Assembly: GCA_016937715.1 (NCBI GenBank)
Contig: JAFGWA010000017.1
Span: 3,227 to 67,226, forward strand
DNA length: 64,000 nt
Origin: Candidatus Goldiibacteriota bacterium
GTDB taxonomy: Bacteria > Oederibacteriota > PGYV01
Direction of reading: 5' to 3'
Made by a program: the position numbers and the translations under genes. Of the stretch, positions 14,257 through 42,711 are shown one piece after another (position 1 is the first letter of the stretch; each line of letters starts with the position of its first letter). Below the pieces are notes generated by a model. That model ran no database searches, had not been told where the DNA came from, and was given only the letters and a program-made list of their open reading frames with translations.

Positions 14257-14676
14257 ATTTCCTCCTGAATAAAATATTTTTAAAAGTTTTCAACATTGTA
14301 AAAACTCATCAATAACAATTATTTAAATATATATAACCTTTGTTGTAGTTGTTGTAGTGTTAATATGACTAATAACCTTAAAAATATTATATTTTAAAAA
14401 GCTTTATAAGTTTTGTTAATGTTAATTGTTATAATATTTTAATACATAACCCGGTATTTATCCACAAAAAAATGACCCTATTTTTATTAACATTTTAATG
14501 AACACGTTATTATGATAGTTGTTAACATAAACCGTATTAATAAATAATATAATAAAGAAAGCAAATTTAAACACACAGAAGGTTAGATGCTTTGAGGCTT
14601 TGAGGCTTGACAAGCAAATAAAGGATGAAAAATATTCAGCTTCTGTGTAATGACGGGGTAACAAAAAAATTAATAT
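14257..14676. other. dnaA-dnaN intergenic spacer: candidate oriC/DNA-unwinding element (AT-rich, one perfect DnaA box)
   Basis: A 420-bp gene-free, extremely AT-rich spacer in the classical oriC position. It has a perfect TTATCCACA box at 14458-14466 and short direct repeats (gttgttgtagt x2; gctttgagg x2). Confidence 0.45.
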
Positions 14677-16020
14677 TTACTTTTTTACTCTCATTACTAT
14701 TTCATTTATTGAGTTTTTAAATTTATCGTCTGATTTTACAAGTTTATCAACTTTATTTATTGCGTGCATAACTGTTGTGTGGTCTTTGCCTCCAAAATAC
14801 TGGCCTATTTGAACAAGCGAATAATCTGTAAGGCTGCGCGTGATATACATTGCCACCTGGCGTGATTTTGCTATGTTTTCATACCTTTTTTTGGACAAAA
14901 GGTCCTGTACTTTTATTCCGAAATAATCGGAAACTATCTGTTGTATCATATCAATACCTATTTTTTTTGCCTGGTCAAACTTTGGATTTCTTATTTTAAT
15001 TGCTTTCTTGGCAAGTTCAATATCAAGTTCTTCGGGGTTTTCCGCCAGTATCAGCAGGTTTTTAAGCGTGCTTTCAAGTTCCCTTATATTATTATCAATG
15101 TGTTCCGCTATATACCCGATAACATTATCAGGAACTTCTTTGTTGGATTCCATGGCTTTCTGTTTTAATATAGCCACCCTTGTTTCAAAGTCCGGAGCAA
15201 GAATATCCGCAATAATTCCGGAAGAGAACCTTGATTTAAGTCGGTCTTCAAGCTTCAAGTCGCCGGGCGGGGAATCTGATGTGGCCACAATCTGTTTGTT
15301 GTGGTTGTATAATTCATTAAAAGTATGAAAGAATTCTTCAATTGTGGCGTCGCCGCGTAAAAACTGAATGTCATCCACTAAAAGCAGGTCAGTGCTTCTG
15401 TAGCGGTTTTTAAATTCATCCATCTTATTTTCGCGGATTCCCTGAGTCACTTCAAAAAGGAATTTTTCCGCTGTGATTATCATTATTTTTTTTGAAGGAT
15501 CCTGTTCATAAATGTATGTTCCGATAGCGTGTAAAAGGTGTGTTTTTCCAAGCCCTACGCCCCCATAGATGAACAAAGGGTTGTATGCCTGTCCCGGTGC
15601 CTCTGCCACTGCTTTACAGGCAGCGTGCGCGAACCTGTTGCTTTGGCCTACTATGAAGTTATCAAATCGGAAACGCGAGTTTAATGAAGGTATAAAAGGG
15701 TGCTGAGGGTCAAGCGGAAGCAATATCTGCTGTTCTTTAATGACAATTTTGGATGACTGGTCTTTTTTGGGTTCTTCAGTTTTAATAACTTCCAATTTAA
15801 GGTCAGATACCTGCCTAAAACCCTTTTCAATTGATTCCATAAGCTCGTTTTTATACTTGGCAAGGGTTTTTTGATGAAGAGAGTCAGGTATGGTGATTAC
15901 AACACAGTCTTTTTCTGTGTTAAAAGACACAGTAGCCTTTTCAAGCCATAAGTTAAGGCCGCTATTTTCTTCTTTAATGGAATTAATAATAACTTCCCAG
16001 TTAAATTCTTTGTTTTTCAA
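14677..16020 (-). CDS. dnaA: chromosomal replication initiator DnaA (start revised to TTG at 16020; the ORF-track ATG at 16092 would read through two DnaA boxes)
   Basis: AAA+ Walker A GGVGLGKTHL and the C-terminal DNA-binding domain. Homology to the DnaA N-terminus begins at ...EFNWEVI. A TTG (minus 16020) is preceded by AAGGGG 8 nt upstream, and perfect TTATCCACA boxes at 16049-16057 and 16071-16079 fall inside the longer ATG-initiated frame. Confidence 0.9.
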   Translation of the reverse strand: MKNKEFNWEVIINSIKEENSGLNLWLEKATVSFNTEKDCVVITIPDSLHQKTLAKYKNELMESIEKGFRQVSDLKLEVIKTEEPKKDQSSKIVIKEQQILLPLDPQHPFIPSLNSRFRFDNFIVGQSNRFAHAACKAVAEAPGQAYNPLFIYGGVGLGKTHLLHAIGTYIYEQDPSKKIMIITAEKFLFEVTQGIRENKMDEFKNRYRSTDLLLVDDIQFLRGDATIEEFFHTFNELYNHNKQIVATSDSPPGDLKLEDRLKSRFSSGIIADILAPDFETRVAILKQKAMESNKEVPDNVIGYIAEHIDNNIRELESTLKNLLILAENPEELDIELAKKAIKIRNPKFDQAKKIGIDMIQQIVSDYFGIKVQDLLSKKRYENIAKSRQVAMYITRSLTDYSLVQIGQYFGGKDHTTVMHAINKVDKLVKSDDKFKNSINEIVMRVKK

Positions 16021-16048
16021 GCTTAAATACCCCTTGTTTTTACACAAC

Positions 16049-16144
16049 TTATCCACAAGTTGAAGTATAGTTATCCACAATATTAATGCCATATAAATAA
16101 GACATTTAATAAGTTATTAAGATTTTCCACAAAACTTATCAACA
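16049..16144. promoter_or_regulatory. DnaA-box cluster upstream of dnaA (autoregulatory region and/or oriC box array)
   Basis: TTATCCACA at 16049-16057 and 16071-16079; TTTTCCACA at 16123-16131; TTATCAACA at 16136-16144. Confidence 0.6.
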
Positions 16145-29658: not shown

Positions 29659-29852
29659 TTTTTTATTTACTTCTGACCCTTATATCTTCCATGCATCCGT
29701 CTCTTGGTTTACCGGGGTTTGTTGTATATAGTGGCAGGCGCGCCTTTTAATATCGAGCCTATAATAAAATTGCTCGATATTATGCGCGGCAGTTGATTTG
29801 ATGTTTGTTTTTACTTCCGACCCTCAGACCCTCTGTGCATCTGTCTTTCAGC
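29659..29852. repeat. two direct copies of the GATGCACAGA-type intergenic repeat (29659-29708 and 29808-29852, minus orientation) flanking a 13-bp-stem hairpin (29751-29782)
   Basis: tttacttcTgaccct...tgcatccgtctcttgg versus tttacttcCgaccctcagaccctctgtgcatctgtctttcagc; hairpin AATATCGAGC-loop-GCTCGATATT in between. Confidence 0.6.
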
Positions 29853-29864
29853 TTAACAGCGGTT

Positions 29865-30060
29865 GGGTATAAACCTCGAAACTATCTCGGCAAGGGAGAG
29901 ATACCACTCGCCATAAACTGATGATAATGGCTCGGGTATAAATCATCTCTAAGCCTCGAAACTACCTCGGCAAGAGCGTGATACCACTCGCCATAAACTG
30001 ATGATAATGGCTCGGGTATAAATCATCTCTAAGCCTCGAAACTACCTCGGCAAGAGCTGA
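29865..30060. repeat. tandem direct repeat, unit about 80 bp x 2.6 copies (69-bp, 80-bp and partial 47-bp units)
   Basis: Units begin with GGGTATAAA at 29865, 29934 and 30014. Units 2 and 3 are identical over the region inspected; unit 1 lacks the 11-bp TCATCTCTAAG insert. Confidence 0.85.
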
Positions 30061-30061
30061 T

Positions 30062-31261
30062 TTACCAGCCGGCTCCTGTAGATTTATTAGGGACAGCGCG
30101 GATTGGGGTTGCAACGGTTTCAGGTGACGAAGAAACCGGTGTAGGTGTTGGTTGTACTATATTGGCGGAAACTTTGCCACCTTTTTTTACAGTGGCTTTT
30201 ATTGGTGCCGCTGTGGTTTGTAATGTTTTAACGGCAACAGGCTGTGAAACTGTTTTATTGCCGGGAACTACAGCAGGTAAAGTTTTATCCGCGGACGCGG
30301 GTGTCGGCGTGTATGTAGGCAGAGGCGCGTCAAGAATTCTGTGCAGCCAATAAGGCGAGACGCCGCCGCTTTCATCAGAAATTTTCATCCTGTTGGTGCC
30401 ATCGGGCCTCATTATCCATATTTCAGGAATATATTTATTATTTATGAAATTTACAAAAACAATATCTTTGCCGTCATAAGAATACACCGGGGAATGGCTT
30501 TTTCCGTCAAGGGTGATATTTTCTGTTTTTCCGGAAGCGATATCATGTACGGCAATGTTTGATGTTTCGCCTTCAAAAAGCGTAAAGACAATTTTTTTGC
30601 CGTCCGGCGAAAAAGAAGGTGAAGCGGCCTTTTTATTGGTATAGTTTGTAAGGCGTGTTTCGTTTATAAAATCTTTTTCCCTTGAATATATATTGGAAGT
30701 ATTTTCATTTTCTATTTTTATGTAAATAAGTTTGTTGTCTTTTGACAGCGAGGGGGAAACGCAATCGTGCGTATCTGTCAGCGCCACGGGGTTATACCCG
30801 TCCCTGTTTATCTTCCAGATATTTTTGCGGCGCGAATAAATTATTTCTGACGAATCGGCTGTCCAGCCGCCGGGATTGCTCATTTTTAAATTTGTGGTGT
30901 CGCCTTCAAGGGAATCCCGGTCAAAAGTAATCTGCGTTGCCCTGTTATTTTTTAAATTACCGGTCCAAAGGTTAAAGTACCCGTTTTGATGCACCCAATA
31001 CGCGATTGTCCAGCCGTCCGGAGAAACACTTGGAAACCATTTGCTTTTTCCGTCAGGAAAAAGTTCCTGTTTTGAATTTCCGTCGCGGTCAATCCAGTAA
31101 AGCGAACCGTTTGATGTATATATTATTTTATCAAGCGCCGGCACCGCTGTAGGTACAGGCGTGGGTACGGCTTTAATCTCTGTCTTTTTTTTCTTACAGC
31201 CGCTGAAAGGAATAATTACGCACAGCAAGAGAATGAAGATTATGAAAATTTTATTTTTCAT
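30062..31261 (-). CDS. TolB-like beta-propeller lipoprotein with a Pro/Thr-rich C-terminal tail
   Basis: Lipobox signal MKNKIFIIFILLLCVIIPFSGC; PD40/WD40-like repeats (DG..IAYW, PSFSPDGKKIVF); C-terminal TPTPASADKTLPAVVP... low-complexity tail. Confidence 0.6.
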   Translation of the reverse strand: MKNKIFIIFILLLCVIIPFSGCKKKKTEIKAVPTPVPTAVPALDKIIYTSNGSLYWIDRDGNSKQELFPDGKSKWFPSVSPDGWTIAYWVHQNGYFNLWTGNLKNNRATQITFDRDSLEGDTTNLKMSNPGGWTADSSEIIYSRRKNIWKINRDGYNPVALTDTHDCVSPSLSKDNKLIYIKIENENTSNIYSREKDFINETRLTNYTNKKAASPSFSPDGKKIVFTLFEGETSNIAVHDIASGKTENITLDGKSHSPVYSYDGKDIVFVNFINNKYIPEIWIMRPDGTNRMKISDESGGVSPYWLHRILDAPLPTYTPTPASADKTLPAVVPGNKTVSQPVAVKTLQTTAAPIKATVKKGGKVSANIVQPTPTPVSSSPETVATPIRAVPNKSTGAGW

Positions 31262-32340
31262 TTAAAACTGCCTTTCGCCGGTGTGGTATCGGCTATTTCT
31301 GAAGGTGCCGGAAAAAACGCATTAAAGAAAGAAGTAAGTTTTTTCTTTTTGCCGGTTTCATATTCAAGGCTGTATATATCGTTGTTTTCAACATAAAAAA
31401 TAAATTTACCGTCTTTTGAAAAAACAGCGCAGCAGCCGGGCTTGTCTGTTACTTTAAGGTCTGCTTTGGGGTCTTTCTGCTGTTTTGCCTCTGTTTTATT
31501 AATATAAATAACCGGTATGTTTTTTTCTGTATTTTTAATGTAGGAAAAAACCTGTTGTTTGGCTTCAAGTTTTGCCCTGTTGAATGAAACTTCATTTTTA
31601 AGATAATTTGTGGAAAACAGTGTTTTTATACCAAGCCCCGATGCGTTTATTGTTTTTATTCCGGCATTGTCGGAATAAATAATTGAATCGTCGCCGGACC
31701 AGTCAAATGAAGGAAATATTATTTCACTTTTAGCCAGTTGTATTTCGTTTGTAAGGTCTGCGTTCATCACAAAAATTCCGCTGTTATTTTTTGTTTTTTC
31801 CCTGAAGAAAACAAATTTTGCGTAATTTGGAGACAGTTTAAAAGAAGTGACATCGTGGTGCTGTGTCAATGCGGACTGCGAAATGCCGATTTTATCAACT
31901 GACCAGATATTTCCATGCATTAAGTAATAAATATTTTTGCCTTCTTTGTCCCACTGTATAAGCCCTCTGTTGTAAAGGTCGGGGATTACTTTGTTTGAAG
32001 TATATTTTGTAAGGGCTTCCTGCCTGGTACCGTCAGTATTCATTATATATAAATTTACAGAGCCGCTGCGGTCGGAAAACATTGCTATTTTGTTTCCTGT
32101 GGGGTCAACGCAGGGAGACCAGTTATTTCCGGAGGATGTAAGTATTTCTTTTTTTGAACCGTCTTCATTCATAATACCAATCTGGTATTTACCCTTGCTG
32201 TCCTGCATAACAAAATAGAGGGCTTTTTTAAAAACGGGCTTGGCATCTTCTTCTATAAGGGCAGAAACAGGCATAGTAAAAATAAAGGATATTATTAATA
32301 AGGAAAGTACTGCAAATAAATTGCCTTTTTTTACGCCCAT
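31258..32340 (-). CDS. TolB-like beta-propeller periplasmic protein
   Basis: Signal peptide; PD40-like repeats (SPCVDPTGNKIAMFSDRSG, SVNLYIM); translationally coupled to the downstream paralog. Confidence 0.55.
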   Translation of the reverse strand: MGVKKGNLFAVLSLLIISFIFTMPVSALIEEDAKPVFKKALYFVMQDSKGKYQIGIMNEDGSKKEILTSSGNNWSPCVDPTGNKIAMFSDRSGSVNLYIMNTDGTRQEALTKYTSNKVIPDLYNRGLIQWDKEGKNIYYLMHGNIWSVDKIGISQSALTQHHDVTSFKLSPNYAKFVFFREKTKNNSGIFVMNADLTNEIQLAKSEIIFPSFDWSGDDSIIYSDNAGIKTINASGLGIKTLFSTNYLKNEVSFNRAKLEAKQQVFSYIKNTEKNIPVIYINKTEAKQQKDPKADLKVTDKPGCCAVFSKDGKFIFYVENNDIYSLEYETGKKKKLTSFFNAFFPAPSEIADTTPAKGSFK

Positions 32341-32415
32341 TTTTACCTCATAAGGTATATTTTCCTTTATAATATATGCTTTTTATGGAAGTGTCAACAG
32401 TAAATAAGGGTTTTA

Positions 32416-33444
32416 TTACTTAATAAACATGGCATCGCCGTATGAAAAAAACCTGTATTTATTTTCAATGGCCGATTTATAGGCCTTTTTAGCGTTTTTT
32501 TCTCCGGCAAACGCGTAAACAAGAGCAAGAAGCGTTGTTTTTGGAAGGTGAAAATTGGTTATAAGGCAGTCTACGGCCTTAAACTGATAACCGGGGTATA
32601 TATATATGGAAGTATTGCTTTTGCCGCTTTTTATTTTATTTTGGCTGTACGCGCTTTCAAGAGCTCTTAAAGAAGTGGTGCCTACGGCTATAATTCTGCC
32701 GCCTGATTCTTTCGCGGTATTTATGGCTGCCGACGTTTCAGGTGAAATTTCATATTCTTCATTATGTATTTTATGTTCCCTTATATCAGGTTCTGTTACC
32801 GGCGCGAAAGTTCCAAGCCCGGTATGCAGGGTTATATATTCAACATACACTCCGGATGTTTTTATCCTGTTCAACAGGGCGGGGGTAAAATGTAATCCTG
32901 CTGTTGGCGCGGCTGTAGCGCCGTCTTTTCTGGCATATACGGTCTGATACCTTTCCCTGTGAAAAGCGCTGTCATCTTCTTTAATATAAGGCGGAAGAGG
33001 AATTTTTCCGTGTTTTTCAAATGCTTTTAATATTTCTTCCCTGCCTGCGGAAAAATAAACTGCAACTGTTTTGCCGAATTTTTTTTTGATTAAAGCTGAA
33101 ATATTTCCGTCAAGCAAAACCGTATCGCCTTCTTTTACCCTGCGTGAATTTCCCATTATGGCTTCCCAGTAATTTTCTTTAAATGAAAGCAAAAGCAGTT
33201 CTATGGCGGCGCCTGATTTTGTCCTGCCGTAAATGCGCGCGGGTATAACGCGGGTATCGTTTAAAACAAGGCAGTCGCCGGGCTTTAAATATTCCGTAAT
33301 GTTTTCAAACAGCCTGTGTTCAATCACGCCGGTTTTTTTATCTGTTACAAGAAGGCGCGATTTGTCCCTTTCCGGGCTTGGAACCTGCGCGATTAATTCC
33401 TGCGGAAGTTCATAATCATAGTTTTCAAGTTTGAATTTGTCCAT
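32416..33444 (-). CDS. queA: S-adenosylmethionine:tRNA ribosyltransferase-isomerase
   Basis: N-terminus MDKFKLENYDYELPQELIAQVPSPERDKSRLLV plus full-length QueA homology. Confidence 0.9.
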   Translation of the reverse strand: MDKFKLENYDYELPQELIAQVPSPERDKSRLLVTDKKTGVIEHRLFENITEYLKPGDCLVLNDTRVIPARIYGRTKSGAAIELLLLSFKENYWEAIMGNSRRVKEGDTVLLDGNISALIKKKFGKTVAVYFSAGREEILKAFEKHGKIPLPPYIKEDDSAFHRERYQTVYARKDGATAAPTAGLHFTPALLNRIKTSGVYVEYITLHTGLGTFAPVTEPDIREHKIHNEEYEISPETSAAINTAKESGGRIIAVGTTSLRALESAYSQNKIKSGKSNTSIYIYPGYQFKAVDCLITNFHLPKTTLLALVYAFAGEKNAKKAYKSAIENKYRFFSYGDAMFIK

Positions 33445-33633
33445 GCGTGAAATTATAGCATATAAGATTGTTTTTTAACCTCCCGTTTAATACATGTTTA
33501 AGGTGAAATATAGTCGTTGAAACATTAAATCTATAAAGCTGCGGTAAAAACTGATAAATCTTTTTTAAGAAAAGCAGGCAGGGCGGCTGTTTATTTTTAA
33601 GGTTTTTTCAGATGAGAGGGTATAAAAATTTTA

Positions 33634-34746
33634 TTAAACCGGCAGGCCTTCATCGTTATATTTTTTTGTGTCCGTAAGTTCGCCGTTTTCATAGCGCCCT
33701 TCAAGTTTCACTTTTCCGTTTTCAAAATAACTTGTATAATTGCCCGCGGGTATGCCTTCTTCAAAATACTGTTCCACCTGAACCTGACCGGAAGGGTAGT
33801 ACATTTTATAAAGCCCCTGCTGCTTGCCGTTATTATACGCGCCGGCCACTTTAAGTTTTCCTGATTTATAGTACAGTTTATAAAATCCGTGTTCCTGCCC
33901 GTTTAGGTATTCGCCTTCAACTTTAAGTTCTCCGGTTTCATAAAAAAGTTTATAGGGCCCTTCTTCAAGCCCTTCTTTATATATACCCTGCAGTTTAATA
34001 CCGCCGTTTTCATAATATAAAGTAAAGTTTCCGTTTTCTTTTCCGTTTACATATTCACCTGTCATTTTTGGCATGCCGTTTTCGTAATATTTCTGCACAG
34101 GCCCGTTTTTAACCCCGGCAGCATAAGCCTCTTTTACCATTATATTTCCATTTTCATAATAAAGTTTGTGAACCCCGTTTTCTTTGCCCTGAATATAAAT
34201 GCCTTCAAGCTTGACGGCGCCGGAAGGGTAGAACAGTTTAAACACACCTTCTTCTTTTCCGTATTTGTAAGACCCGTCTAACTTTTTATTTCCGTTCTCA
34301 TAAAAAGTTATAAAGCTTCCGTGTTTAATTCCGTCCCTGTAGGTTTCGTTAAGTTTAAGGATACCGCCTTCATAATAAGTGCGGTTAACGGCTTCGCCTG
34401 TAAGTTCGTTTATGGCGCGTTCATTTTTTAGGCTGCCGTCCGCGAACCAGCTTTGATAAGGCCAGGTAATTTCGCCGTCCTGATAGGTTTCCTGTTCGGC
34501 CGGTTTGCCGTTGTCATAATACCAGGTAACAGTTCCGTCTTTTATGGAATTATTTTCATAGGTTATTTTAGCCGCCGTCTTTATGCCGGACTGGTCTATT
34601 TTTACGCATGCGGTTTCACCCGATATTGTTTCGCCTTCTTTTAAAACACTGCCGTCCGGGTTAAAAGTCCAGACAGCCGCAAGGACGGTGGTATCCTTAA
34701 AAAATTTCTGCTGCTGTCCCTGACGGATGCTTTTAAAAGTTATCAT
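33634..34746 (-). CDS. MORN-repeat protein (YwqK/COG2849-like)
   Basis: At least 12 tandem repeats of about 23 aa with the pattern G.(Y/W).YYENG.(L/K)..G.Y.NG...G. Confidence 0.7.
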   Translation of the reverse strand: MITFKSIRQGQQQKFFKDTTVLAAVWTFNPDGSVLKEGETISGETACVKIDQSGIKTAAKITYENNSIKDGTVTWYYDNGKPAEQETYQDGEITWPYQSWFADGSLKNERAINELTGEAVNRTYYEGGILKLNETYRDGIKHGSFITFYENGNKKLDGSYKYGKEEGVFKLFYPSGAVKLEGIYIQGKENGVHKLYYENGNIMVKEAYAAGVKNGPVQKYYENGMPKMTGEYVNGKENGNFTLYYENGGIKLQGIYKEGLEEGPYKLFYETGELKVEGEYLNGQEHGFYKLYYKSGKLKVAGAYNNGKQQGLYKMYYPSGQVQVEQYFEEGIPAGNYTSYFENGKVKLEGRYENGELTDTKKYNDEGLPV

Positions 34747-34856: not shown

Positions 34857-35579
34857 ATGAACTTACAAGCCGCTTTAAAAAAGCATCTAGAGGGCAGTCC
34901 TGCCGTTATAAACGGAGAGATGTTTAATAATATACTCATTTACTCAAATGAGTTAATTGAAAAAAACAGGCAGTTTAATCTTACCGCAATTACCGCCCCC
35001 GAAGAAGTTGCAGTAAAACATGTCCTTGATTCCGTACACCTGTTTGGGGCGATGTCAGGCGATGTTCCGGTTTCGCTTGCGGATGCCGGAACCGGCGCGG
35101 GTTTTCCTGGTATCATAGCCGCCATATTAAATGAAAAAATTAAAGTTACCCTTGTTGAATCAAACGGGAAAAAAGCAAATTTTTTAAACGGTGTAATTAA
35201 TAAACTAAAACTTAATAACGCAGTTGTAATTCAAAGCCGCAGTGAAGAATGTTCCCGCGATAAAAAAATGCGTCAAAAATTTTCAGCAGTGACGATGAGA
35301 GCGTTTGCGGAATTTAAAACAGCAATGGAACTGACATCTGCGCTGTGCGCGCTTAAAGGAAAAATTTATTACTTTGCAAGCGCGGATCAAGTTAAAGAAA
35401 TTAAACGCGAAGGAAATATTTATAACGAACTGAAATTAAAATTTGAAAAAATCTATGATTACACTTTACCGCTTGATCTTGGAAAAAGGCACATTGTAAT
35501 TTTAAGCAGGACAGGGGACACGCCTAATTGTTATCCAAGAACATTTCAAAAGATAAAAATTAAACCTATCAGCTTCTAA
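34857..35579 (+). CDS. rsmG: 16S rRNA (guanine527-N7)-methyltransferase RsmG (GidB)
   Basis: GidB family: HVLDS, the SAM-binding motif DAGTGAGFPGI, and a length of about 240 aa. Confidence 0.85.
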   Translation: MNLQAALKKHLEGSPAVINGEMFNNILIYSNELIEKNRQFNLTAITAPEEVAVKHVLDSVHLFGAMSGDVPVSLADAGTGAGFPGIIAAILNEKIKVTLVESNGKKANFLNGVINKLKLNNAVVIQSRSEECSRDKKMRQKFSAVTMRAFAEFKTAMELTSALCALKGKIYYFASADQVKEIKREGNIYNELKLKFEKIYDYTLPLDLGKRHIVILSRTGDTPNCYPRTFQKIKIKPISF

Positions 35580-35597
35580 TTGTTCCACGTGGAACAA
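35580..35597. promoter_or_regulatory. parS site 1 (perfect TTGTTCCACGTGGAACAA)
   Basis: An 18-bp perfect palindrome whose 16-bp core TGTTCCACGTGGAACA fits the ParB-binding consensus tGTTnCACGTGnAACa. It lies immediately after the rsmG stop. Confidence 0.8.
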
Positions 35598-35921
35598 TTT
35601 AGATTATTACAAATCATTTTGTTAAAACTTTAATTTTTTCATAAACTTTCCGGAATATTTTCTTCTGATATATTTATATAATTTATCCGTTTAAGTCTCG
35701 TTAAAATATACTATTCTAAATAAAAATTATTAAGCAGATTGTATTTTTTAATAGAATAGATATTTATAGTCAGCAATACAGATTTCTTAATAATTAATTG
35801 AATCTGAATAAATTTATTACCTTATAGTCTGACTTAATAATATTTAAATATAGATATTTTGTTTTATCACGCTGATATATGTATTAATAAAATTTAATTT
35901 TCAAAGTTTTCAATTCAATCA

Positions 35922-35939
35922 TTGTTCTACGTGGAACAA
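35922..35939. promoter_or_regulatory. parS site 2 (one mismatch: TTGTTCTACGTGGAACAA)
   Basis: Single C>T change in the left half-site; the exact mirror image of site 3. Confidence 0.65.
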
Positions 35940-36062
35940 TGAGAAGTTAAATAAGAGAATACTATCCTTAAGAAATATATATAAGCAATGCCTGCTTATG
36001 GTAATAGTACCGCATATATAGCCGCGTAACTTAATTAAACATAAGCTGCTTAAACACACCTA

Positions 36063-36080
36063 TTGTTCCACGTAGAACAA
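36063..36080. promoter_or_regulatory. parS site 3 (one mismatch: TTGTTCCACGTAGAACAA)
   Basis: Reverse complement of site 2. Confidence 0.65.
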
Positions 36081-36348
36081 TCTTTTAAGTATGGCAATAA
36101 TCATATTTATACTATAAAAATATAAGATAATGAATCAATACCGGAGGATAAAAACACATGCTTAAGCGCCTTTTTTGGTATCTATTAAAATGTAAAATTA
36201 ACTGATATGTATTAAATAATTACAGCGTTACAAATTTATGGTTGTGAATGTTAATTACAATAACAAGCATAAATAAATGTTTTGATGCATAACAATATTA
36301 TCAGAGAAAATATAAAGTCAAAGCAATCAAACATTATAAATACGCAAA

Positions 36349-36366
36349 TTGTTCCACGTGGAACAA
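36349..36366. promoter_or_regulatory. parS site 4 (perfect TTGTTCCACGTGGAACAA)
   Basis: Perfect 18-bp palindrome, 88 bp upstream of the recF start. Confidence 0.8.
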
Positions 36367-36453
36367 CTGAAAATTCTATAAAAATATATGTCTTGAAAAA
36401 GATATTCTATTGGTGTATCTTTGTCTCAATAGAAATATATTTCCGGAGGCAGG

Positions 36454-37551
36454 ATGTATATAAAAAAAATTGAACTTTCAAACCTTAGAAACTATTCATC
36501 ACTTAATTTAGAACTTGTTCAGGGTATAAATGTTTTTCACGGGGATAATGGTTCCGGGAAAACAAATATAATTGAAGCAATCCACTGGATGTCTTTGGGA
36601 AAATCTTTCAGAGCATCTGATGATAAAGAAATTGTTAAAGAGAATTGTGATTCGTGCAGAGTATACGCGGAAGCAGAAATAAGCGGGTTGGATAAATTGT
36701 TTTCTCTTGATTACTCATCTGCTTCCAGAAAGAAAAGCATCAGAATAAATAATACAAAGATAAAAAGGATGGGTGACATCATAGGAGAAATTCCTGTAGT
36801 GCTTTTTTCTCCGGAAGACATTCAGATAATAAAAGGCGAGCCGGTCTTAAGAAGAAAATATCTTGATCAGATGCTGTGCCAGGTAAGCAAAGAATATTTT
36901 GAGACGCTGGCAAAATATACAAAAGAGGTAAGTCACAGAAATTATCTGCTGAAGGGAATTAAAGACAAGAAAATAAAAATTTCCAATCTTGATATATGGA
37001 ACGAGCAGATTAAAAACAATGGAACATTATTAGTCATGAAAAGATTTGAAGCTATAGAAGAATTAAATTCAATTCTTGTTTCAAAATTTTCATCAGAAAA
37101 AAATGATGTCTCTATAACATATCTTTCCAAAAATTTTATGTCGGTAAAACCCGAAGACATAAAAGCCGAATATGAAAATCATTTTAAAACAAAAATTGAT
37201 GAAGAAATTTTAAGAGGCGTGACGCTGATTGGCCCTCATCGGGATGATTTAGAAATTTTTTATACCGGCAAAAAAGCAAAAGCTTTTGCGTCCGAAGGGC
37301 AGCAGAGAGTATCCGCTATTTTATTAAAACTTGCAGAGGGGCTTTTTATAAAAGAAAGAAAAAATATTTACCCTGTAATTATGCTTGATGATTTTTCTTC
37401 TGAACTTGATAACCCAAACCGCGGGTTTATAGGCAGGACACTTGAACAGTTTAAACAGATTATTATCACCACCACCTATCCGGAAAATTTAAAAGAGCTA
37501 ATTCCCGCAAAAATGTTCCACGTGGAACAAGGCAAAGTTAGACAAGGCTAA
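36454..37551 (+). CDS. recF: DNA replication and repair protein RecF
   Basis: Walker A GDNGSGKTN and ABC-type signature/D-loop regions over 365 aa; GGAGG RBS. Confidence 0.9.
   Translation: MYIKKIELSNLRNYSSLNLELVQGINVFHGDNGSGKTNIIEAIHWMSLGKSFRASDDKEIVKENCDSCRVYAEAEISGLDKLFSLDYSSASRKKSIRINNTKIKRMGDIIGEIPVVLFSPEDIQIIKGEPVLRRKYLDQMLCQVSKEYFETLAKYTKEVSHRNYLLKGIKDKKIKISNLDIWNEQIKNNGTLLVMKRFEAIEELNSILVSKFSSEKNDVSITYLSKNFMSVKPEDIKAEYENHFKTKIDEEILRGVTLIGPHRDDLEIFYTGKKAKAFASEGQQRVSAILLKLAEGLFIKERKNIYPVIMLDDFSSELDNPNRGFIGRTLEQFKQIIITTTYPENLKELIPAKMFHVEQGKVRQG
37513..37530. promoter_or_regulatory. parS site 5 (core TGTTCCACGTGGAACA perfect) embedded in the recF 3' coding sequence
   Basis: aTGTTCCACGTGGAACAa encodes ...MFHVEQG... 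near the recF C-terminus. parS sites inside genes are common for the origin-proximal parS set. Confidence 0.75.
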
Positions 37552-37680: not shown

Positions 37681-37709
37681 TTGACCTTAATATACCGTTG
37701 TGATAATAT
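37681..37709 (+). promoter_or_regulatory. sigma70-type promoter of the HD-GYP/cyclase operon
   Basis: TTGACC (37681-37686), 17-bp spacer, TAATAT (37704-37709). The ORF-track GTG start at 37700 lies inside the -10 element, so the TTG at 37739 is the more plausible start. Confidence 0.55.
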
Positions 37710-37738
37710 ATATTTACGGTGTTTTAGCGGAGGTATTT

Positions 37739-39019
37739 TTGAAAATAAGAAGCCAGTTAATATTAGGTATAGTTGCTATCGTCATCCTTTCTGTAACTGC
37801 AACCACTGTTGTGCTTGTAAGGGATGCCGCGGAAATAATGCAGGGGCAGATAAACGAAAAAGCGTTACTTATGATAAATTATTTTAAGGGCGTCAGCGCG
37901 GAACCGCTTTTAAAAGATGATGAAGTGACGCTTAATACATATCTTAATGAAATTATTTCAACCGAAGGGCTTGTTTACCTTATTATTACCGGCAGAGACG
38001 GGTATGTGAAAGCCGCTGACGATTCTTCACTGCTTGGCGCGGTTTTAAAAAACAGGCTGCCTGAGATTGCAGCGGGTGAAAAAAATATTTTTTTGAAATA
38101 TAAAGGCAGTGATTATTCAGTGATTGCCTTTTCGGGCACCGTGGACGTAAAAGCCGGACGAATTAAAACTGAAGCGGGAAAAATCTACGCCGGTTTTGAC
38201 AGTGAATACGTAAAGGAAAAACTTGTAAGGGTTTATGTTAAAAGCGCGGCAATTGCCGCGGGTATAATTATTATATCTGTTATTTTTATTGTGGCATTAA
38301 TGCACAGGATGATGAGCCCCTTAAACAAACTTGTAAAAGGGACAAATAAAATTGCAGACGGCGATTTAAGTTATAAAATAAAAATAACCGCGGGCAATGA
38401 ATTTCAGGAGCTTGCAAACAGTTTTAACGGCATGACGGATAAACTTAAGGATTATTATGACGGAATATTAAACGCGTTTACGGTGGCGGTGGATACGCAG
38501 GATAAATATATTCCCGCGCACGCAAAAAGAGTTTCAAAGATGGCGGTTAAAACAGCGCAGGCAGCCGGGCTTTCGCCCAAAAGGGCGGAAAATTTAAGGG
38601 TGGCTGCTATATTAAAGGATGTTGGCAATATCGGAGTAAAAAGAAAAATACTTGATAAGACCGACCCGCTTACGGCTGATGATTTTCTTGAAATACAGAA
38701 ACACCCGGAAATTGGAGCTAAGATTATTAAAAATATTGATGCTTTAAAAGATGTTGTCCCTATTATAGTGGCTCATCATGAAAGGTTTGACGGCAACGGT
38801 TATCCTGACGGCAAAAAAGGCGAGGAAATTCCTGTTGAGGCAAGGATTCTTGCGGTGGCGGACGCTTATGACGCCATGACAACCGAAAGGGAGCACAGAA
38901 AAGCGCTTGATAAAGAAGAGGCGGTTTATGAACTTAGGCTTAACAAAGGAAAACAGTTTGACCCTGTTATAACAGAAAGGTTTATTGAGGTAATAAATAA
39001 GGAAGGAGGAAAAACTTAA
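37739..39019 (+). CDS. membrane HAMP-HD-GYP phosphodiesterase (start revised to TTG at 37739)
   Basis: TM - periplasmic sensor region - TM - HAMP (LVKGTNKIADGDLSYKIKI) - HD domain with HHERFDGNGYPDG (HD-GYP). GGAGG lies 5 nt upstream of the TTG. The stop overlaps the next start (TAATG). Confidence 0.8.
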   Translation: MKIRSQLILGIVAIVILSVTATTVVLVRDAAEIMQGQINEKALLMINYFKGVSAEPLLKDDEVTLNTYLNEIISTEGLVYLIITGRDGYVKAADDSSLLGAVLKNRLPEIAAGEKNIFLKYKGSDYSVIAFSGTVDVKAGRIKTEAGKIYAGFDSEYVKEKLVRVYVKSAAIAAGIIIISVIFIVALMHRMMSPLNKLVKGTNKIADGDLSYKIKITAGNEFQELANSFNGMTDKLKDYYDGILNAFTVAVDTQDKYIPAHAKRVSKMAVKTAQAAGLSPKRAENLRVAAILKDVGNIGVKRKILDKTDPLTADDFLEIQKHPEIGAKIIKNIDALKDVVPIIVAHHERFDGNGYPDGKKGEEIPVEARILAVADAYDAMTTEREHRKALDKEEAVYELRLNKGKQFDPVITERFIEVINKEGGKT

Positions 39020-40581
39020 TGGCAGAAAAAAAGACGGTGAAGAAAAAAAATAAAGGATTAAAAATTTCACTGGGGGCTAAGTTTAGTTTTTTAGTGGGGC
39101 TGTTGTTTGCCGGAATAATGACGGTTGTCACCGTATTTATATATAATCACGAAAGCGATGTTCTTTCAAACCAAATAAAGCAGCGAGGTACTGCAATTGC
39201 GGTAAATCTTGCCAATAACGCATCCGAAGCGCTTACCAATGATGATGAACTTACGCTTTCCAAGCTTGCCAGGGAAGCTGTACAGGAAACAAAGTTTGAT
39301 GAAACACAAATGGAATTATATGACCGTGTAATTAAGATATTAAAGGAAGATATAATTGAACAGAAGAAGAAAGAAATTATTAAAAACGAAGGCATTATGG
39401 AAGCTGTTGTTGTAAAAAAAGACGGAAATATTGCGTCCGCGGATGAAGTAAGGAGGATAGATGAAAGATATATCCTTCCGGCGGGTTTAAAACCCGTTCA
39501 AAAAGAAAATGATGTGCTTATTCAGGAATATAAAAAAAATGGAAAAAGTTATTTTGATATCGCGGTACCTTTAAAAGCGAAGCTTGGTATGGATGAACAC
39601 ATGATAGGAGAGGTTCATCTTACGGTTTCAACGCAGATAATAACCGAGAGCGTGGCCGTGGCTTCTGTTAAAGTCGCCCTTATTACTATAATAGGGCTTA
39701 TAGCAGGGATACTTTTTACGGTACTGCTGGTAAACTTTATGGTAAAACCAATAAAGCAGCTTGTAAAAGGCGTTAATAAAATAGGGGAAGGAAATTATGA
39801 TGTGGTAATTCCCACCAGGTCGCATGATGAAATAGGCGATTTGACGAAAGCTTTTAATTCCACAGCCAAAAGCCTTAAGGAAAAAGAACTTTTAAAAGGC
39901 GCGTTTTCCACTTATGTGTCGGACAAAGTCATGCAGCAGGTTTTAAAAGACCCTAACAAACTGCAGCTTCACGGAATTAAGGTAAAAGCCACAATGATGT
40001 TTACCGATATCAGGGGATTTACATCAATGTCTGAAAATCTTCAGCCGGAAGAGGTTGTAAGCGTAATAAATGAGTATCTGACACTGCAGACTGATAAAGT
40101 TTTTAAATTTGAAGGGCTTCTTGATAAGTTTGTGGGAGACTGTGTAATGGCTGTATATGGCGTGCCTTTTCCCAAGCCGGATGACGCATACCGCGCCGTA
40201 AGGACAGCAATGGCTATAAGGGAAGGCGTGGAAAAACTTAATGTGATAAGAAAAAGAAGAAACATGATAGTGGTTCAGATAGGTATTGGGGTTAATACCG
40301 GCGATGTGGTTTCCGGAAACATGGGTTCGCCGCAGAAAATGGATTATACCGTAATAGGCGACAATGTAAACCTTGCCGCAAGGCTTGAAGCAAACGCTCC
40401 CGGCGGGCAGGTATGGGTAAGCGAAAGCACATATCTTGAGACAAAAGATTATATTGAATATGAAGAACTGGCGCCTATAATGGTTAAAGGAAAAAAGGAG
40501 CCGGTAAAAGTTTACAGCCCAAAAACTGTTATAATGGAATATCCAAAAGAACTGCTGGAAAAGGATAATAATGGAGCTTAA
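39019..40581 (+). CDS. membrane HAMP-class III adenylate/guanylate cyclase
   Basis: TM - sensor - TM - HAMP (LVKGVNKIGEGNYDVVIPT) - cyclase core MFTDIRGFTSMSE...FVGDCVMAVYG...GVNTGDVVSGNMGS...YTVIGDNVNLAARLE. Confidence 0.85.
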   Translation: MAEKKTVKKKNKGLKISLGAKFSFLVGLLFAGIMTVVTVFIYNHESDVLSNQIKQRGTAIAVNLANNASEALTNDDELTLSKLAREAVQETKFDETQMELYDRVIKILKEDIIEQKKKEIIKNEGIMEAVVVKKDGNIASADEVRRIDERYILPAGLKPVQKENDVLIQEYKKNGKSYFDIAVPLKAKLGMDEHMIGEVHLTVSTQIITESVAVASVKVALITIIGLIAGILFTVLLVNFMVKPIKQLVKGVNKIGEGNYDVVIPTRSHDEIGDLTKAFNSTAKSLKEKELLKGAFSTYVSDKVMQQVLKDPNKLQLHGIKVKATMMFTDIRGFTSMSENLQPEEVVSVINEYLTLQTDKVFKFEGLLDKFVGDCVMAVYGVPFPKPDDAYRAVRTAMAIREGVEKLNVIRKRRNMIVVQIGIGVNTGDVVSGNMGSPQKMDYTVIGDNVNLAARLEANAPGGQVWVSESTYLETKDYIEYEELAPIMVKGKKEPVKVYSPKTVIMEYPKELLEKDNNGA

Positions 40582-41821
40582 AAAAGACATATTAAAAACA
40601 GTTACCAGATACGCCCAGGCAGGCGAATGGGCTAAGGTTATAGCAGAGTATGAAAAACTGCTTCAAATTGAACCGGATGACATTAATGTCCATAATTCAA
40701 TAGGTGATGCTTTTTCCAAAATGGGCGAAGACAGAAAAGCGTTTGAACATTATCTGCGCGTGTTAAATGACCCGCAGACAAAGGCAAACCCCACAAAAAT
40801 GGCGTTTTTAAACAAGAAAATATCAAAACTTGACCCAAAAAAGTTTGACCTTGACGGCAAAGCGCTTCACGAAACCATTTCCAAATCGGTTAAAGCAAAG
40901 GATATGTTTGAAAAACAGGAAGGCGGGGATGCTTCTGCCCTGCCGGCGCTTAAAGAGGCGCTTGCAAACGATAAAATGAACCCTGAACTGTTCATGATGT
41001 TAGGCGAGGTTTATGAAAAGCAGACAGACATTGGAAACGCCATAGAATCTTATGTTAAGGCGTTAAGGATATATGTGGAAAAAAATAACAGCGGTAAAGG
41101 GCTGGAGCTTGCGAAAAAAATAATGAACCTGCAGAAAGAAAACACCGATGCTCTGGCAATGATTGCGGAAGATATGGTAAAAAACGGCAAAAAAGAAGAA
41201 GCTGAAGAGATGTTTAAGGATGTACTTATAAATTTAGCGGAAAAAAACCTTGTGGCAGAAGGTAAGGGTGTTTCAAAAAGGGCCATGGAGCTTGGGATAA
41301 CATACGGCGAGCAGTTTTTTTCCTATTTTCTTTTTAAAGACGGAAAATATGAAGAAGCCAGAAAAATTCTGGAAAAAAAATATTCACTTACGCTTGAAGA
41401 AAAACTTCTGCTTGGAAAAATATGCTACAAGATGAACGATTTTGAAAAAGCAAAATCTGTTTTTCTTTCGATGGACCCTGCAATAATAAATGAAAGCGAA
41501 GAACTGCTTGATCAGATAGGCGATGTTTTTCTTAAACTAAGGGAGTTAAAGACCTCTTCGGAATATTATATGAAAGTGGTGCGTATGCTTAAAAGCCAGG
41601 GAGACCTGGATCATGCCATGCTTGCCGCCAATAAAGTATTAAATGTGGACGGCGATAATATAGAAGTACACGAAATTCTGACAGATATATATACAAAAAA
41701 ACAGATGAAAAACAAGCTTATAGATTCCCTTACAAAACTGGCGTCGCTTTATGACGCCGCGCACAGGACGCAGGACAGCATGAGCGCCAAAAATATGCTT
41801 AATAAGCTGAAAATGCTTTAG
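40571..41821 (+). CDS. TPR-repeat protein
   Basis: Multiple 34-aa TPR-like helical repeats (AW...Y..AL, NPEL..MLGEVYEK...). It overlaps the cyclase gene by 11 nt. Confidence 0.6.
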   Translation: MELKKDILKTVTRYAQAGEWAKVIAEYEKLLQIEPDDINVHNSIGDAFSKMGEDRKAFEHYLRVLNDPQTKANPTKMAFLNKKISKLDPKKFDLDGKALHETISKSVKAKDMFEKQEGGDASALPALKEALANDKMNPELFMMLGEVYEKQTDIGNAIESYVKALRIYVEKNNSGKGLELAKKIMNLQKENTDALAMIAEDMVKNGKKEEAEEMFKDVLINLAEKNLVAEGKGVSKRAMELGITYGEQFFSYFLFKDGKYEEARKILEKKYSLTLEEKLLLGKICYKMNDFEKAKSVFLSMDPAIINESEELLDQIGDVFLKLRELKTSSEYYMKVVRMLKSQGDLDHAMLAANKVLNVDGDNIEVHEILTDIYTKKQMKNKLIDSLTKLASLYDAAHRTQDSMSAKNMLNKLKML

Positions 41822-41824
41822 CGC

Positions 41825-42175
41825 ATGAAGCCGTTTGACTGTGAAACCTGCGGTTTAAAGATTAAAGATAATCAGGCCGTTGTCAGGTGGCATTATGATA
41901 AAGAAAAAAAATCCGCGGATACTTTTCAGATAGTCCATCCAAATACGGTATGTTCAGATTCCAAAGAAGGTTTTTTTAACCGGTCGCTTGAACTGATGTA
42001 TGTTTTTGGAAAGATGCCGGAGTTTATAAAGTACATTTCAAGGTTAAAACACGATAAAAAAGAGCTTAAAAGGTTTGTGGACCGTATTGAAAAAGGGCGC
42101 AGTTACATAAGGCGGCACAACGCGGATAAAAACGAAATTAAAAAGCTGATAATAAGGCTTGAAGGGCTGGAATGA
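41825..42175 (+). CDS. hypothetical small protein with an N-terminal CxxC motif
   Basis: 116 aa, CETCG near the N-terminus, Lys/Arg-rich; tightly packed in the operon. Confidence 0.35.
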   Translation: MKPFDCETCGLKIKDNQAVVRWHYDKEKKSADTFQIVHPNTVCSDSKEGFFNRSLELMYVFGKMPEFIKYISRLKHDKKELKRFVDRIEKGRSYIRRHNADKNEIKKLIIRLEGLE

Positions 42176-42645
42176 TAATGGAATGCAAAGAGGCAAGAAA
42201 AAAACTTAATGATTATTCAAAAGGATATATTACAGATACCGCGGAAAAAGACAGCCTGGAGTCGCATATTAAAAAGTGCGAACTGTGCAGGCGGGAGCTT
42301 GCCATGTGGCAGGATGTAAACGACAGGCAGCACGGCCTGGAAGGCGGGCGCGTGTCATCGCGCCTTGCGGAAAAAGCCCATCAAATAAGCGGTGAAATGG
42401 AAAAAGACGTAAATATGGCTCCGGCCGCCAAAAGAATGGGTTATGTGGCCAATACTTTAAAATCTCCCGCGGCAATGATAATAGGAATAATTACGTGCGT
42501 GTTTTTAGGGCTGGCAATTCTGCTTATGTTTGTTAAAGAAGAAGTAAGCATATGGTTTCACATATTTATGATAGCGGGAGGAATTGCCATGATATTTGTG
42601 GCGGTTAAAACGTCCGTCTTCAACAGGAAGAAAAGTAAAAAGTAA
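42172..42645 (+). CDS. zf-HC2 (anti-sigma-factor-type zinc finger) membrane protein
   Basis: N-terminal C-x23-H-x3-C-x2-C (CKEARKKLNDY...HIKKCELC) typical of the anti-sigma zf-HC2 domain, then a C-terminal TM segment. No sigma factor gene is adjacent. Confidence 0.5.
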   Translation: MIMECKEARKKLNDYSKGYITDTAEKDSLESHIKKCELCRRELAMWQDVNDRQHGLEGGRVSSRLAEKAHQISGEMEKDVNMAPAAKRMGYVANTLKSPAAMIIGIITCVFLGLAILLMFVKEEVSIWFHIFMIAGGIAMIFVAVKTSVFNRKKSKK

Positions 42646-42647
42646 TA

Positions 42648-42676: not shown

Positions 42677-42711
42677 ACATAAGGATTAAAAAAAAGACGG
42701 GGGAAAATGAG

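What the first reader, a model, noticed from the sequence alone, without database searches (positions are those of the whole stretch)
35572..37531. Cluster of five canonical ParB-binding parS palindromes around an 870-bp gene-free spacer between rsmG and recF
The 16-mer TGTTCCACGTGGAACA occurs perfectly three times: within 35580-35597, within 36349-36366, and at 37514-37529 inside recF codons FHVEQ. It also occurs twice with one mismatch, as exact mirror images of each other (35922-35939 and 36063-36080). This is the fully symmetric form of the near-universal ParB/Spo0J parS consensus tGTTnCACGTGnAACa. Five sites within 2 kb is an unusually dense array and marks this locus as the ParB loading and centromere region. 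No parA or parB gene is present in the window, and the classical rsmG-parA-parB linkage is replaced here by non-coding DNA of much lower GC than the coding regions.
Basis: partly seen in the sequence, partly recalled or inferred. Interest (0 to 1): 0.6.

Follow-up and report, generated by a model that had tools for sequence, protein, structure and literature searches.

The report
Origin-proximal parS centromere cluster
Five copies of the near-universal bacterial centromere sequence (parS) lie in and beside an AT-rich gap between rsmG and recF, about 20 kb from the replication origin of an uncultured FCPU426-related bacterium; this is a clear but ordinary example of a well-known feature.

Summary
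TGTTCCACGTGGAACA occurs perfectly at 35581, 36350 and 37514 (in the recF codons for FHVEQ). It occurs with one mismatch at 35923 and 36064, which are reverse complements of each other. Shuffles expect none, and no other site with 3 or fewer mismatches exists in the 64 kb. The rsmG-recF spacer is 874 bp and 24.6% GC. It has no credible ORF, no Rfam match and no ParA/ParB remnant.

DnaA boxes flank dnaA at 14.4-16.1 kb, and the third-codon-position GC skew flips there. So oriC lies beside dnaA, and the parS cluster sits about 19.5 kb to its right.

Four related genomes (RecF 82%, 57%, 53% and 30% identical) also have rsmG-parS-recF, with spacers of about 90 to 1440 bp. Against the closest relative, the DNA between the sites is at chance similarity, while the 16-mers are identical. 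That argues for selection and therefore a cognate ParB. No ParB gene could be located, because only this window was available.

The array is not unusually dense. An unrelated locus has five sites in 431 bp. parS inside recF is already known in Pseudomonas aeruginosa.

Verdict: a chromosomal ParB-loading centromere, a new member of a known kind, of low interest.

The parts
35581..35596 (.). parS site 1. A perfect TGTTCCACGTGGAACA that starts 2 nt after the rsmG stop codon. It sits inside an extended 12-bp hairpin-forming palindrome.
   Evidence: The orthologous site directly follows the rsmG stop in L001 (6425) and L024 (708), and lies 31 nt after it in L011 (9628). The RNA hairpin is -12 kcal/mol, z -4.6.
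35923..35938 (.). parS site 2, with one mismatch (TGTTCTACGTGGAACA). It is the reverse complement of site 3 and probably arose by local inverted duplication.
   Evidence: Inverted repeats I1 and I2 extend into the flanks (26-27 nt, 89-92% complementary). Its upstream flank resembles the flank of the L001 site at 6854 (83% over 53 nt).
36064..36079 (.). parS site 3, with one mismatch (TGTTCCACGTAGAACA).
   Evidence: The identical variant is conserved in L001 at 6555.
36350..36365 (.). parS site 4, perfect. It ends 27 nt before the -35 hexamer of the conserved putative recF promoter.
   Evidence: The ortholog in L001 is at 6854.
37514..37529 (.). parS site 5, perfect. It lies inside the recF coding sequence (codons MFHVEQ), 11 codons before the stop.
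   Evidence: It is conserved in L001 (8010; peptide MFHVEH). It is absent from L002 and L024 recF.
35580..36453 (.). An 874-bp gene-free, AT-rich (24.6% GC) rsmG-recF spacer that carries sites 1-4.
   Evidence: GC and length; largest ORF is 63 aa and looks spurious; no Rfam or tRNA match; no ParA/ParB remnant; chance-level similarity to L001 outside the parS sites; no other copy in the window.
36393..36453 (+). Putative recF promoter (TTGAAA, 17 nt, TATCTT) and leader with GGAGG. This is the only other conserved block in the spacer.
   Evidence: consensus match at 36393-36421. (81% identity to L001, z 12.3).
34857..35579 (+). rsmG (gidB), the left partner of the conserved rsmG-parS-recF module.
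   Evidence: PF02527, 9e-40. The adjacency is also seen in L001, L002, L011 and L024.
36454..37551 (+). recF, the right partner of the module. It is detached from dnaA-dnaN in this genome.
14257..16144 (.). Context: the probable bipartite oriC around dnaA. The 420-bp dnaA-dnaN spacer is 23% GC and holds a perfect DnaA box at 14458. Four boxes (two perfect) lie at 16049-16144 upstream of dnaA.
   Evidence: The third-codon-position GC skew changes sign here.

Best explanation
The five palindromes are chromosomal parS sites, and together they form the centromere of this bacterium's chromosome. The organism is an uncultured relative of candidate division FCPU426.

Inferred mechanism, from established ParABS biology: dimers of a ParB/Spo0J protein encoded elsewhere in the genome recognise each 16-bp palindrome. 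They bind CTP, close into clamps and slide onto flanking DNA, building one large nucleoprotein complex about 20 kb from oriC. That complex is the handle for ParA-driven segregation of the origin region and the loading site for SMC condensin.

Four sites sit in a non-coding, fast-evolving AT-rich spacer, and the fifth is written into the RecF C-terminal motif MFHVEQ. The first site may also serve as the rsmG terminator hairpin. The fourth site lies just upstream of the recF promoter, so ParB may modulate recF transcription.

What is shown: sequence identity to the consensus, restriction to this locus, an origin-proximal position, and conservation across relatives. What is inferred: ParB binding and all downstream functions.
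For: - Consensus match: three exact and two 1-mismatch matches to the fully symmetric parS, with 0 expected by chance and no other site in 64 kb.
- Origin proximity: dnaN and dnaA lie at 13.1-16.1 kb. Perfect DnaA boxes are at 14458, 16049 and 16071, with two 1-mismatch boxes at 16123 and 16136. Plus-strand third-codon-position GC skew is -0.06 left of 14.3 kb and +0.15 to +0.25 from 16 to 53 kb.
- Shared locus in L001 (RecF 82% identical): four sites at equivalent places, including the same G11A variant and the recF C-terminal site.
- Shared locus in L002 (57%): two perfect sites between rsmG and recF.
- Shared locus in L024 (53%): two sites in a spacer of about 90 bp.
- Shared locus in L011 (30%, FCPU426): a 1-mismatch site just after rsmG and an identical one between mnmE and mnmG.
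- Selection on the sites: between the window and L001, the DNA between sites is at chance similarity (z <= 1.0), while the coding flanks are 78-79% identical and the 16-mers are 100% identical.
- Module integrity: the rsmG-parS-recF unit stays intact while its surroundings are rearranged. The purC-methyltransferase-pepP genes follow recF in L002 but lie at 26.8-29.5 kb on the other strand here.
- Precedent: parS inside recF and ParB effects on nearby promoters are documented in P. aeruginosa (PMC5521831).
Against: No ParB or ParA gene is present in the window or in the fetched flanks of the four relatives, so the cognate protein is not demonstrated. Genome-wide specificity of the motif could be tested only on this 64-kb window and 8-21 kb of each relative. 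No binding data exist. Two of the five sites carry a mismatch, at position 6 in one and at its mirror position 11 in the other, and its effect on affinity is unknown.
Confidence: 0.85

Rival explanations
1. The AT-rich spacer is itself the replication origin (oriC) with parS sites embedded in it. This would resemble E. coli, where oriC lies next to gidA/gidB.
For: The spacer is the longest and nearly the most AT-rich intergenic region in the window. Gene orientation switches from minus to plus at 34.75-34.86 kb, next to it. Raw AT skew changes sign near 35 kb.
Against: No DnaA box with 1 or fewer mismatches lies between 31.6 and 41 kb, while five cluster around dnaA. Third-codon-position GC skew flips at about 14-16 kb, not at 35 kb: the 16.2-34.8 kb block already shows +0.20. 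The AT-skew switch simply follows gene strand, as it does again at 48-52 kb. The spacer is not conserved in sequence or length: about 90 bp in L024, 403 bp in L011 and 527 bp in L001. In L002 genes are co-oriented on both sides of the locus.
Confidence: 0.04
2. The palindromes are not ParB sites. They would instead be generic hairpin elements (terminators or REP-like repeats) or operators of another CACGTG-binding regulator.
For: Site 1 with its flanks forms a 12-13-bp hairpin right after the rsmG stop, at -12 to -13.6 kcal/mol. In L024 and L011 the equivalent site is followed by a T run. The terminator scan flags the 37514 site on the minus strand.
Against: All five match the 16-bp parS consensus at 15-16 of 16 positions, far beyond what a hairpin requires. 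One site lies inside a coding region. No copies occur after any other gene in the 64 kb. Sites 2-4 have no T tract, and only one terminator-like site was found, which equals the shuffle expectation. The same 16-mer marks origin regions in unrelated phyla among the fetched loci.
Confidence: 0.04
3. The sites are relics. The lineage lost parAB, the spacer is the decayed remnant of those genes, and the parS sites no longer function.
For: In the classical arrangement parA-parB follow rsmG. Here nothing coding follows rsmG for 874 bp, and no parAB is seen in any fetched flank.
Against: tblastn with 13 ParB and 14 ParA proteins gives only 25-27-aa matches at E >= 0.057 against an 874-bp database. 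The adjacency without parAB is shared down to 30% RecF identity, and the spacer is only about 90 bp in L024, so the long spacer is derived rather than ancestral. Non-functional 16-mers would not stay identical while the surrounding DNA randomised.
Confidence: 0.05

Closest known systems
Chromosomal parS / ParB (Spo0J) centromere sites, consensus tGTTNCACGTGNAACa, as in Bacillus subtilis, Caulobacter crescentus and Pseudomonas aeruginosa. The consensus and its wide distribution rest on my own knowledge of Lin & Grossman 1998 and Livny et al. 2007.
   Same: The 16-bp palindrome is identical. There are several copies clustered close to oriC, in both intergenic and intragenic positions.
   Different: parAB are not adjacent. 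Four sites lie in one gene-free, AT-rich spacer. The organism belongs to an uncultured candidate phylum in which parS has not, to my knowledge, been described.
Pseudomonas aeruginosa parS1-4 cluster (PMC5521831, read).
   Same: parS1 and parS2 lie inside recF, and intergenic parS3 and parS4 lie next to promoters that ParB represses. The cluster is next to oriC and is necessary and sufficient for segregation. Gammaproteobacterial loci L013-L020 fetched here show the same two recF positions, one at the MFHVEQ C-terminus.
   Different: In Pseudomonas recF is still in the dnaA-dnaN-recF-gyrB operon and parAB follow gidB on the other side of oriC. Here recF is paired with rsmG about 20 kb from dnaA. 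The loci with the C-terminal site were fetched with the peptide pattern AKMFHVEQ, so their frequency is biased.
Caulobacter crescentus parS cluster (PMC5815017, read).
   Same: The strongest sites are tightly clustered (five within 5 kb) at some distance from oriC. That paper argues clustering aids ParB spreading.
   Different: The Caulobacter cluster lies around parAB (my own knowledge, not checked here). Here it is unlinked from them and is denser: 5 sites in 1.95 kb.
   Same: These are gene-free spacers beside origin-region housekeeping genes (recF-gyrB-gyrA) that carry 3-5 parS sites with no parAB adjacent. L096 has 5 sites in 431 bp of a spacer of about 600 bp. L077 has 3 sites at 37-bp spacing.
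   Different: They use the TGTTTCACGTGAAACA variant, have shorter spacers with regular short periods, and lie downstream of gyrA rather than between rsmG and recF.

Membership tests
Chromosomal parS (ParB/Spo0J binding site) | 16-bp inverted repeat matching TGTTNCACGTGNAACA | tested here: met
   Three sites match 16 of 16 positions and two match 15 of 16. Zero are expected in shuffles.
Chromosomal parS (ParB/Spo0J binding site) | Location in the origin-proximal domain | tested here: met
   dnaA, dnaN and the DnaA-box clusters lie at 14.4-16.1 kb, and the third-codon-position GC skew flips there. The cluster begins 19.4 kb to the right.
Chromosomal parS (ParB/Spo0J binding site) | Rare and locus-restricted, not a dispersed repeat | tested here: inconclusive
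   This is met within the 64-kb window (no other site with 3 or fewer mismatches) and within the 8-21 kb flanks of the four FCPU426-type relatives (L001, L002, L024, L011), where every hit within the mismatch limit searched lies in the rsmG-recF locus except an identical second copy 2.7 kb upstream in L011, between mnmE and mnmG. The rest of the genome was not available.
Chromosomal parS (ParB/Spo0J binding site) | Conserved in related genomes under purifying selection | tested here: met
   Orthologous sites are present in L001, L002, L024 and L011. Against L001, the DNA between sites is at chance similarity (z <= 1) while the 16-mers are identical.
Chromosomal parS (ParB/Spo0J binding site) | A cognate ParB (ParBc N-terminal CTPase domain plus HTH) encoded in the same genome | not testable with these tools
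   ParB is absent from the window and from the relatives' flanks.
Chromosomal parS (ParB/Spo0J binding site) | Specific ParB binding or spreading (ChIP-seq, EMSA) | not testable with these tools
   This is experimental.
Bacterial oriC | Cluster of DnaA boxes (TTATCCACA-like) | tested here: not met
   No box with 1 or fewer mismatches lies between 31.6 and 41.0 kb. Five lie around dnaA.
Bacterial oriC | Replication-associated strand-composition switch at the site | tested here: not met
   Plus-strand third-codon-position GC skew is already +0.20 across 16.2-34.8 kb and +0.15 across 34.8-45.1 kb. It changes sign at about 14-16 kb.
Bacterial oriC | AT-rich unwinding region | tested here: inconclusive
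   The spacer is 24.6% GC. However, it is unconserved in sequence and length among relatives.
Intrinsic terminator / REP-like extragenic palindrome | GC-rich hairpin followed by a T tract, or many dispersed extragenic copies | tested here: not met
   Only one terminator-like call was made in 35.4-37.8 kb, which equals the shuffle expectation. There are no copies elsewhere in the window. Site 1 may still act as a weak rsmG terminator hairpin.

The most novel reading that the evidence does not exclude
In the FCPU426 lineage the centromere may be a free-standing rsmG-parS-recF module that is permanently uncoupled from parAB and from dnaA-dnaN. It travels as a unit through genome rearrangements. 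It grows by local (inverted) duplication into a gene-free AT-rich island. In this genome and in L001 it, rather than oriC, marks the point from which gene orientation diverges. That would fit selection for co-orientation with ParB-loaded SMC translocation, since the 19 kb between oriC and parS is transcribed head-on to replication but away from parS.
Probability: 0.12. Interest if true: 0.45.

Novelty: new member of a known kind. Interest (0 to 1): 0.18.

Why it matters
The finding places the ParB loading site of an uncultured candidate-phylum bacterium about 20 kb from its dnaA-linked origin. This is useful for annotation and for interpreting Hi-C or marker-frequency data from such MAGs. It also adds an example of parS written into the RecF C-terminal motif and of a parS array that is unlinked from parAB. 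It does not change any concept: the sequence, the clustering, the origin proximity and the intragenic recF sites all have direct precedents.

Tried and rejected
- Spacer as oriC: rejected on DnaA boxes and third-codon-position GC skew.
- Non-coding RNA in the spacer: no Rfam hit at gathering threshold in the window, none at E<=1 in 35400-36600, and no tRNA or tmRNA.
- Hidden gene in the spacer: only 20-63-aa ORFs that look like AT-rich noise.
I replaced it with tblastn using 13 ParB and 14 ParA sequences taken from fetched loci. That gave only sub-significant 25-27-aa matches (best E 0.057) and nothing in the whole window.
- Spacer as a mobile-element remnant: blastn found no other copy in the window or the loci apart from parS itself and the L001 ortholog.
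- Locating ParB of this organism: exact-protein look-ups returned only Logan contigs of 10 kb or less from SRR13394436 and SRR13394437, reaching about 3 kb beyond the left end with no par genes.
- Metagenome scan: an alignment query produced patterns that were too general, and it yielded only one additional close relative, L024.
- Literature: full-text searches found no paper describing chromosome segregation in FCPU426.
Full report
**Observation.**
- One search finds the fully symmetric 16-mer TGTTCCACGTGGAACA perfectly at 35581, 36350 and 37514.
- It finds one-mismatch copies at 35923 (TGTTCTACGTGGAACA) and 36064 (TGTTCCACGTAGAACA), which are reverse complements of each other.
- One hundred dinucleotide-preserving shuffles gave none. 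A scan allowing up to four mismatches shows nothing else in the 64 kb closer than four mismatches.
- Pfam confirms rsmG (34857-35579) and recF (36454-37551).
- The spacer between them is 874 bp and 24.6% GC, against 39.9% for the window. It is the longest intergenic region present.
- The 37514 site is read as M-F-H-V-E-Q, eleven codons before the recF stop.

**What the window is.** Pfam annotation of essentially all ORFs of 100 aa or more gives this order on the minus strand: gyrB (3421-6012), a histidine kinase, gyrA (10649-13108), dnaN (13147-14256) and dnaA (14677-16092). A 19-kb block of minus-strand housekeeping genes follows (thiC, accBC, efp, pepP, purC, queA and others). A MORN-repeat gene ends at 34746. 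From 34857 the genes run on the plus strand: rsmG, recF, then an HD-GYP, adenylate-cyclase, TPR and cNMP-binding cluster. No ORF hits ParA or ParB, and tblastn with 13 ParB and 14 ParA proteins taken from other fetched loci finds nothing at E<=1e-3. RecF relatives identify the organism as an uncultured bacterium related to candidate division FCPU426. RecF identity is 82% for L001, 57% for L002 (FCPU426, 1.2-Mb contig), 53% for L024 and 30% for L011 (FCPU426).

**Where the origin is.**
- Perfect DnaA boxes occur at 14458, in the 420-bp, 23% GC dnaA-dnaN spacer.
- Two more perfect boxes are at 16049 and 16071, with one-mismatch boxes at 16123 and 16136 just upstream of dnaA.
- No box with one or fewer mismatches lies between 31.6 and 41 kb.
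- Raw skews are confounded by gene strand, so I computed third-codon-position GC skew on the plus strand. It is -0.06 for 1-14.3 kb, +0.20 for 16.2-34.8 kb, +0.15 for 34.8-45.1 kb and +0.15 for the minus-strand genes at 45.7-52.9 kb.

The replication-associated switch is therefore at dnaA and not at the rsmG-recF spacer. This rejects the rival reading that the AT-rich spacer is oriC. The parS cluster lies about 19.5 kb into the right replichore.

**What is in the spacer.** Nothing recognisable apart from the parS sites and a recF promoter.
- There is no Rfam family at gathering threshold in the window, none at E<=1 in 35400-36600, and no tRNA.
- The longest ORF is 63 aa, has a TTG start and looks like AT-rich noise.
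- ParA/ParB tblastn gives only 25-27-residue matches with E of 0.057 or worse against this tiny database.
- Nothing in the spacer recurs elsewhere in the window.
- The block 36393-36453 (TTGAAA, 17 nt, TATCTT, then GGAGG and ATG) is 81% identical to L001 (z 12.3). It is most simply the recF promoter and leader. parS site 4 ends 27 nt upstream of its -35 hexamer.

**Comparative evidence.**
- L001 has the same MORN(-)/rsmG(+)/spacer/recF layout. It has sites at 6425 (directly after the rsmG stop, as here), at 6555 (the same G11A variant as window site 3), at 6854, and at 8010 in the RecF C-terminus.
- L002 has rsmG, a perfect parS, an IS30-family transposase gene, a second perfect parS, then recF.
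- L024 has rsmG, two sites 50 bp apart in a spacer of about 90 bp, then recF with the same downstream genes as the window.
- The distant L011 reads yidC-jag-mnmE-[site]-mnmG-rsmG-[site]-recF-gyrB-gyrA, with two identical one-mismatch sites, TGTTCCACATGGAACA.

So rsmG-parS-recF, without parAB, is a conserved module across this lineage. Its neighbours differ: purC, a methyltransferase gene and pepP follow recF in L002, but lie at 26.8-29.5 kb on the opposite strand here.

Between the window and L001, the DNA between sites aligns no better than shuffled sequence (z from -0.2 to 1.0). The adjacent coding DNA is 78-79% identical (z 34-36), and the 16-mers are identical. Conserved islands in a randomised spacer indicate purifying selection, which implies that a binding protein exists.

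The spacer length varies: about 90, 403, 527 and 874 bp, and about 1440 bp including the IS. The flank-extended inverted repeats around sites 1-3 show that the array turns over by local duplication. They also show that the long AT-rich spacer is derived and is not a decayed parAB operon.

**Mechanism.** What is shown is a set of exact parS sequences, restricted to this locus, near the origin and under selection. The rest follows from established ParABS biology. ParB dimers nucleate at each palindrome, bind CTP, close into sliding clamps and spread over neighbouring DNA. The complex is moved by ParA and loads SMC.

Two local side-effects are plausible but only inferred. First, site 1 together with the rsmG stop codon forms a 12-13-bp hairpin (-12 to -13.6 kcal/mol in the window and L001; in L024 and L011 the site is followed by a T run). 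It may therefore double as the rsmG terminator. Second, site 4 next to the recF promoter may make recF ParB-sensitive, as shown for promoters beside parS3 and parS4 in P. aeruginosa (PMC5521831).

**Comparison with the known.**
- The 16-mer is the canonical chromosomal parS.
- parS1 and parS2 of P. aeruginosa lie within recF (PMC5521831). The gammaproteobacterial loci L013-L020 fetched here carry sites at the same two recF positions, one encoding the same MFHVEQ C-terminus. Those loci were retrieved with that very peptide pattern, so their frequency is biased.
- None of the 80 metagenome loci, which were chosen through N-terminal patterns, has the C-terminal site.
- The RecF C-terminal motif F-x-V-E-x-G is evidently pre-adapted to encode parS.
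- The density is not exceptional. L096 has five sites in 431 bp of a gene-free spacer after gyrA. L077 has three at 37-bp spacing and L093 three at 55-bp spacing. The five strongest Caulobacter sites lie within 5 kb (PMC5815017).

**What could not be done.** The cognate ParB was not found. Exact-protein look-ups returned only contigs of 10 kb or less. Genome-wide specificity is therefore tested only on the 64-kb window and on 8-21 kb in each of four relatives.

**Verdict.** The claims of unusual density and of replacement of parAB by non-coding DNA do not hold. This is a new member of a known kind and deserves low interest. The only mildly unusual aspects are the conserved stand-alone rsmG-parS-recF module, the derived AT-rich expansion, and the coincidence of the gene-orientation switch with the parS cluster rather than with oriC.

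Noticed in passing
window 14257-14676 and 16040-16145: This is a probable bipartite oriC around dnaA. The dnaA-dnaN spacer is 420 bp and 23% GC, with a perfect DnaA box at 14458. Four same-orientation boxes (two perfect) lie at 16049-16144 upstream of dnaA. Third-codon-position GC skew changes sign here.
   Followed up: partly
window 16257-34746: About 19 kb of genes immediately right of the inferred origin are nearly all on the minus strand, so they are transcribed head-on to replication (one 137-aa plus-strand ORF at 20194-20607 is the exception). Their third-codon-position GC skew is nevertheless fully 'right-replichore' (+0.20). Orientation flips at 34.75-34.86 kb, beside the parS cluster. 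Relative to L002 this block is inverted with respect to rsmG-recF. L001 shares the divergent arrangement and L002 does not.
   Followed up: partly
window 3421-16092; L011 2143-16767: The origin-region gene order is non-classical. Here it is dnaA-dnaN-gyrA-histidine kinase-...-gyrB, with recF detached and paired with rsmG. In L011 it is yidC-jag-mnmE-mnmG-rsmG-recF-gyrB-gyrA, with no dnaA-dnaN or parAB in between.
   Followed up: partly
L002 8850-9890: An IS30-family transposase gene (HTH_38; 321 aa) with terminal inverted repeats (AAGTGCAACAC / GTGTTGCACTT) is inserted between the two parS sites of the rsmG-recF spacer.
   Followed up: partly
L013-L018, L020 (about 10340-10440 and 10950-11055); L003-L010 (11079): Gammaproteobacterial recF genes carry parS at two conserved intragenic positions (mid-gene and the MFHVEQG C-terminus), matching P. 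aeruginosa parS1 and parS2. Psychrobacillus and Bacillus recF carry a one-mismatch variant, TGTTTCATGTGGAACA, at the C-terminal position. These loci were selected through the AKMFHVEQ peptide pattern, so their frequency is biased.
   Followed up: partly
L096 15492-15922; L077 5651-5740; L093 5707-5832: These are very dense, regularly spaced intergenic parS arrays directly downstream of recF-gyrB-gyrA in unrelated metagenomic bacteria, with no parAB adjacent. L096 has five sites in 431 bp, L077 has three at 37-bp spacing and L093 has three at 55-bp spacing.
   Followed up: partly
L011 6887-6902 and 9628-9643: Both parS-like sites of this distant FCPU426 genome carry the same central substitution (CACGTG to CACATG). 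That may indicate a lineage-specific ParB preference, or weak sites.
   Followed up: no
L001 5681-6422: rsmG is split into two overlapping ORFs (5681-6127 and 6069-6422) in this MAG. This is either a frameshift or an assembly error.
   Followed up: no
window 37700-43140, 955-3392: This region is rich in cyclic-nucleotide signalling genes. Downstream of recF lie HAMP-HD-GYP, HAMP-adenylate/guanylate cyclase, TPR and cNMP-binding genes, and the first part of this cluster (HD-GYP where present, cyclase, TPR and the two small ORFs that follow) is conserved in L001 and L024. A second cyclase and a Crp-family regulator lie at the left end of the window.
   Followed up: no
window 58480-59289: A 269-aa ORF of only 29% GC, with no Pfam match, sits among genes of about 40% GC. 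It may be foreign or fast-evolving.
   Followed up: no
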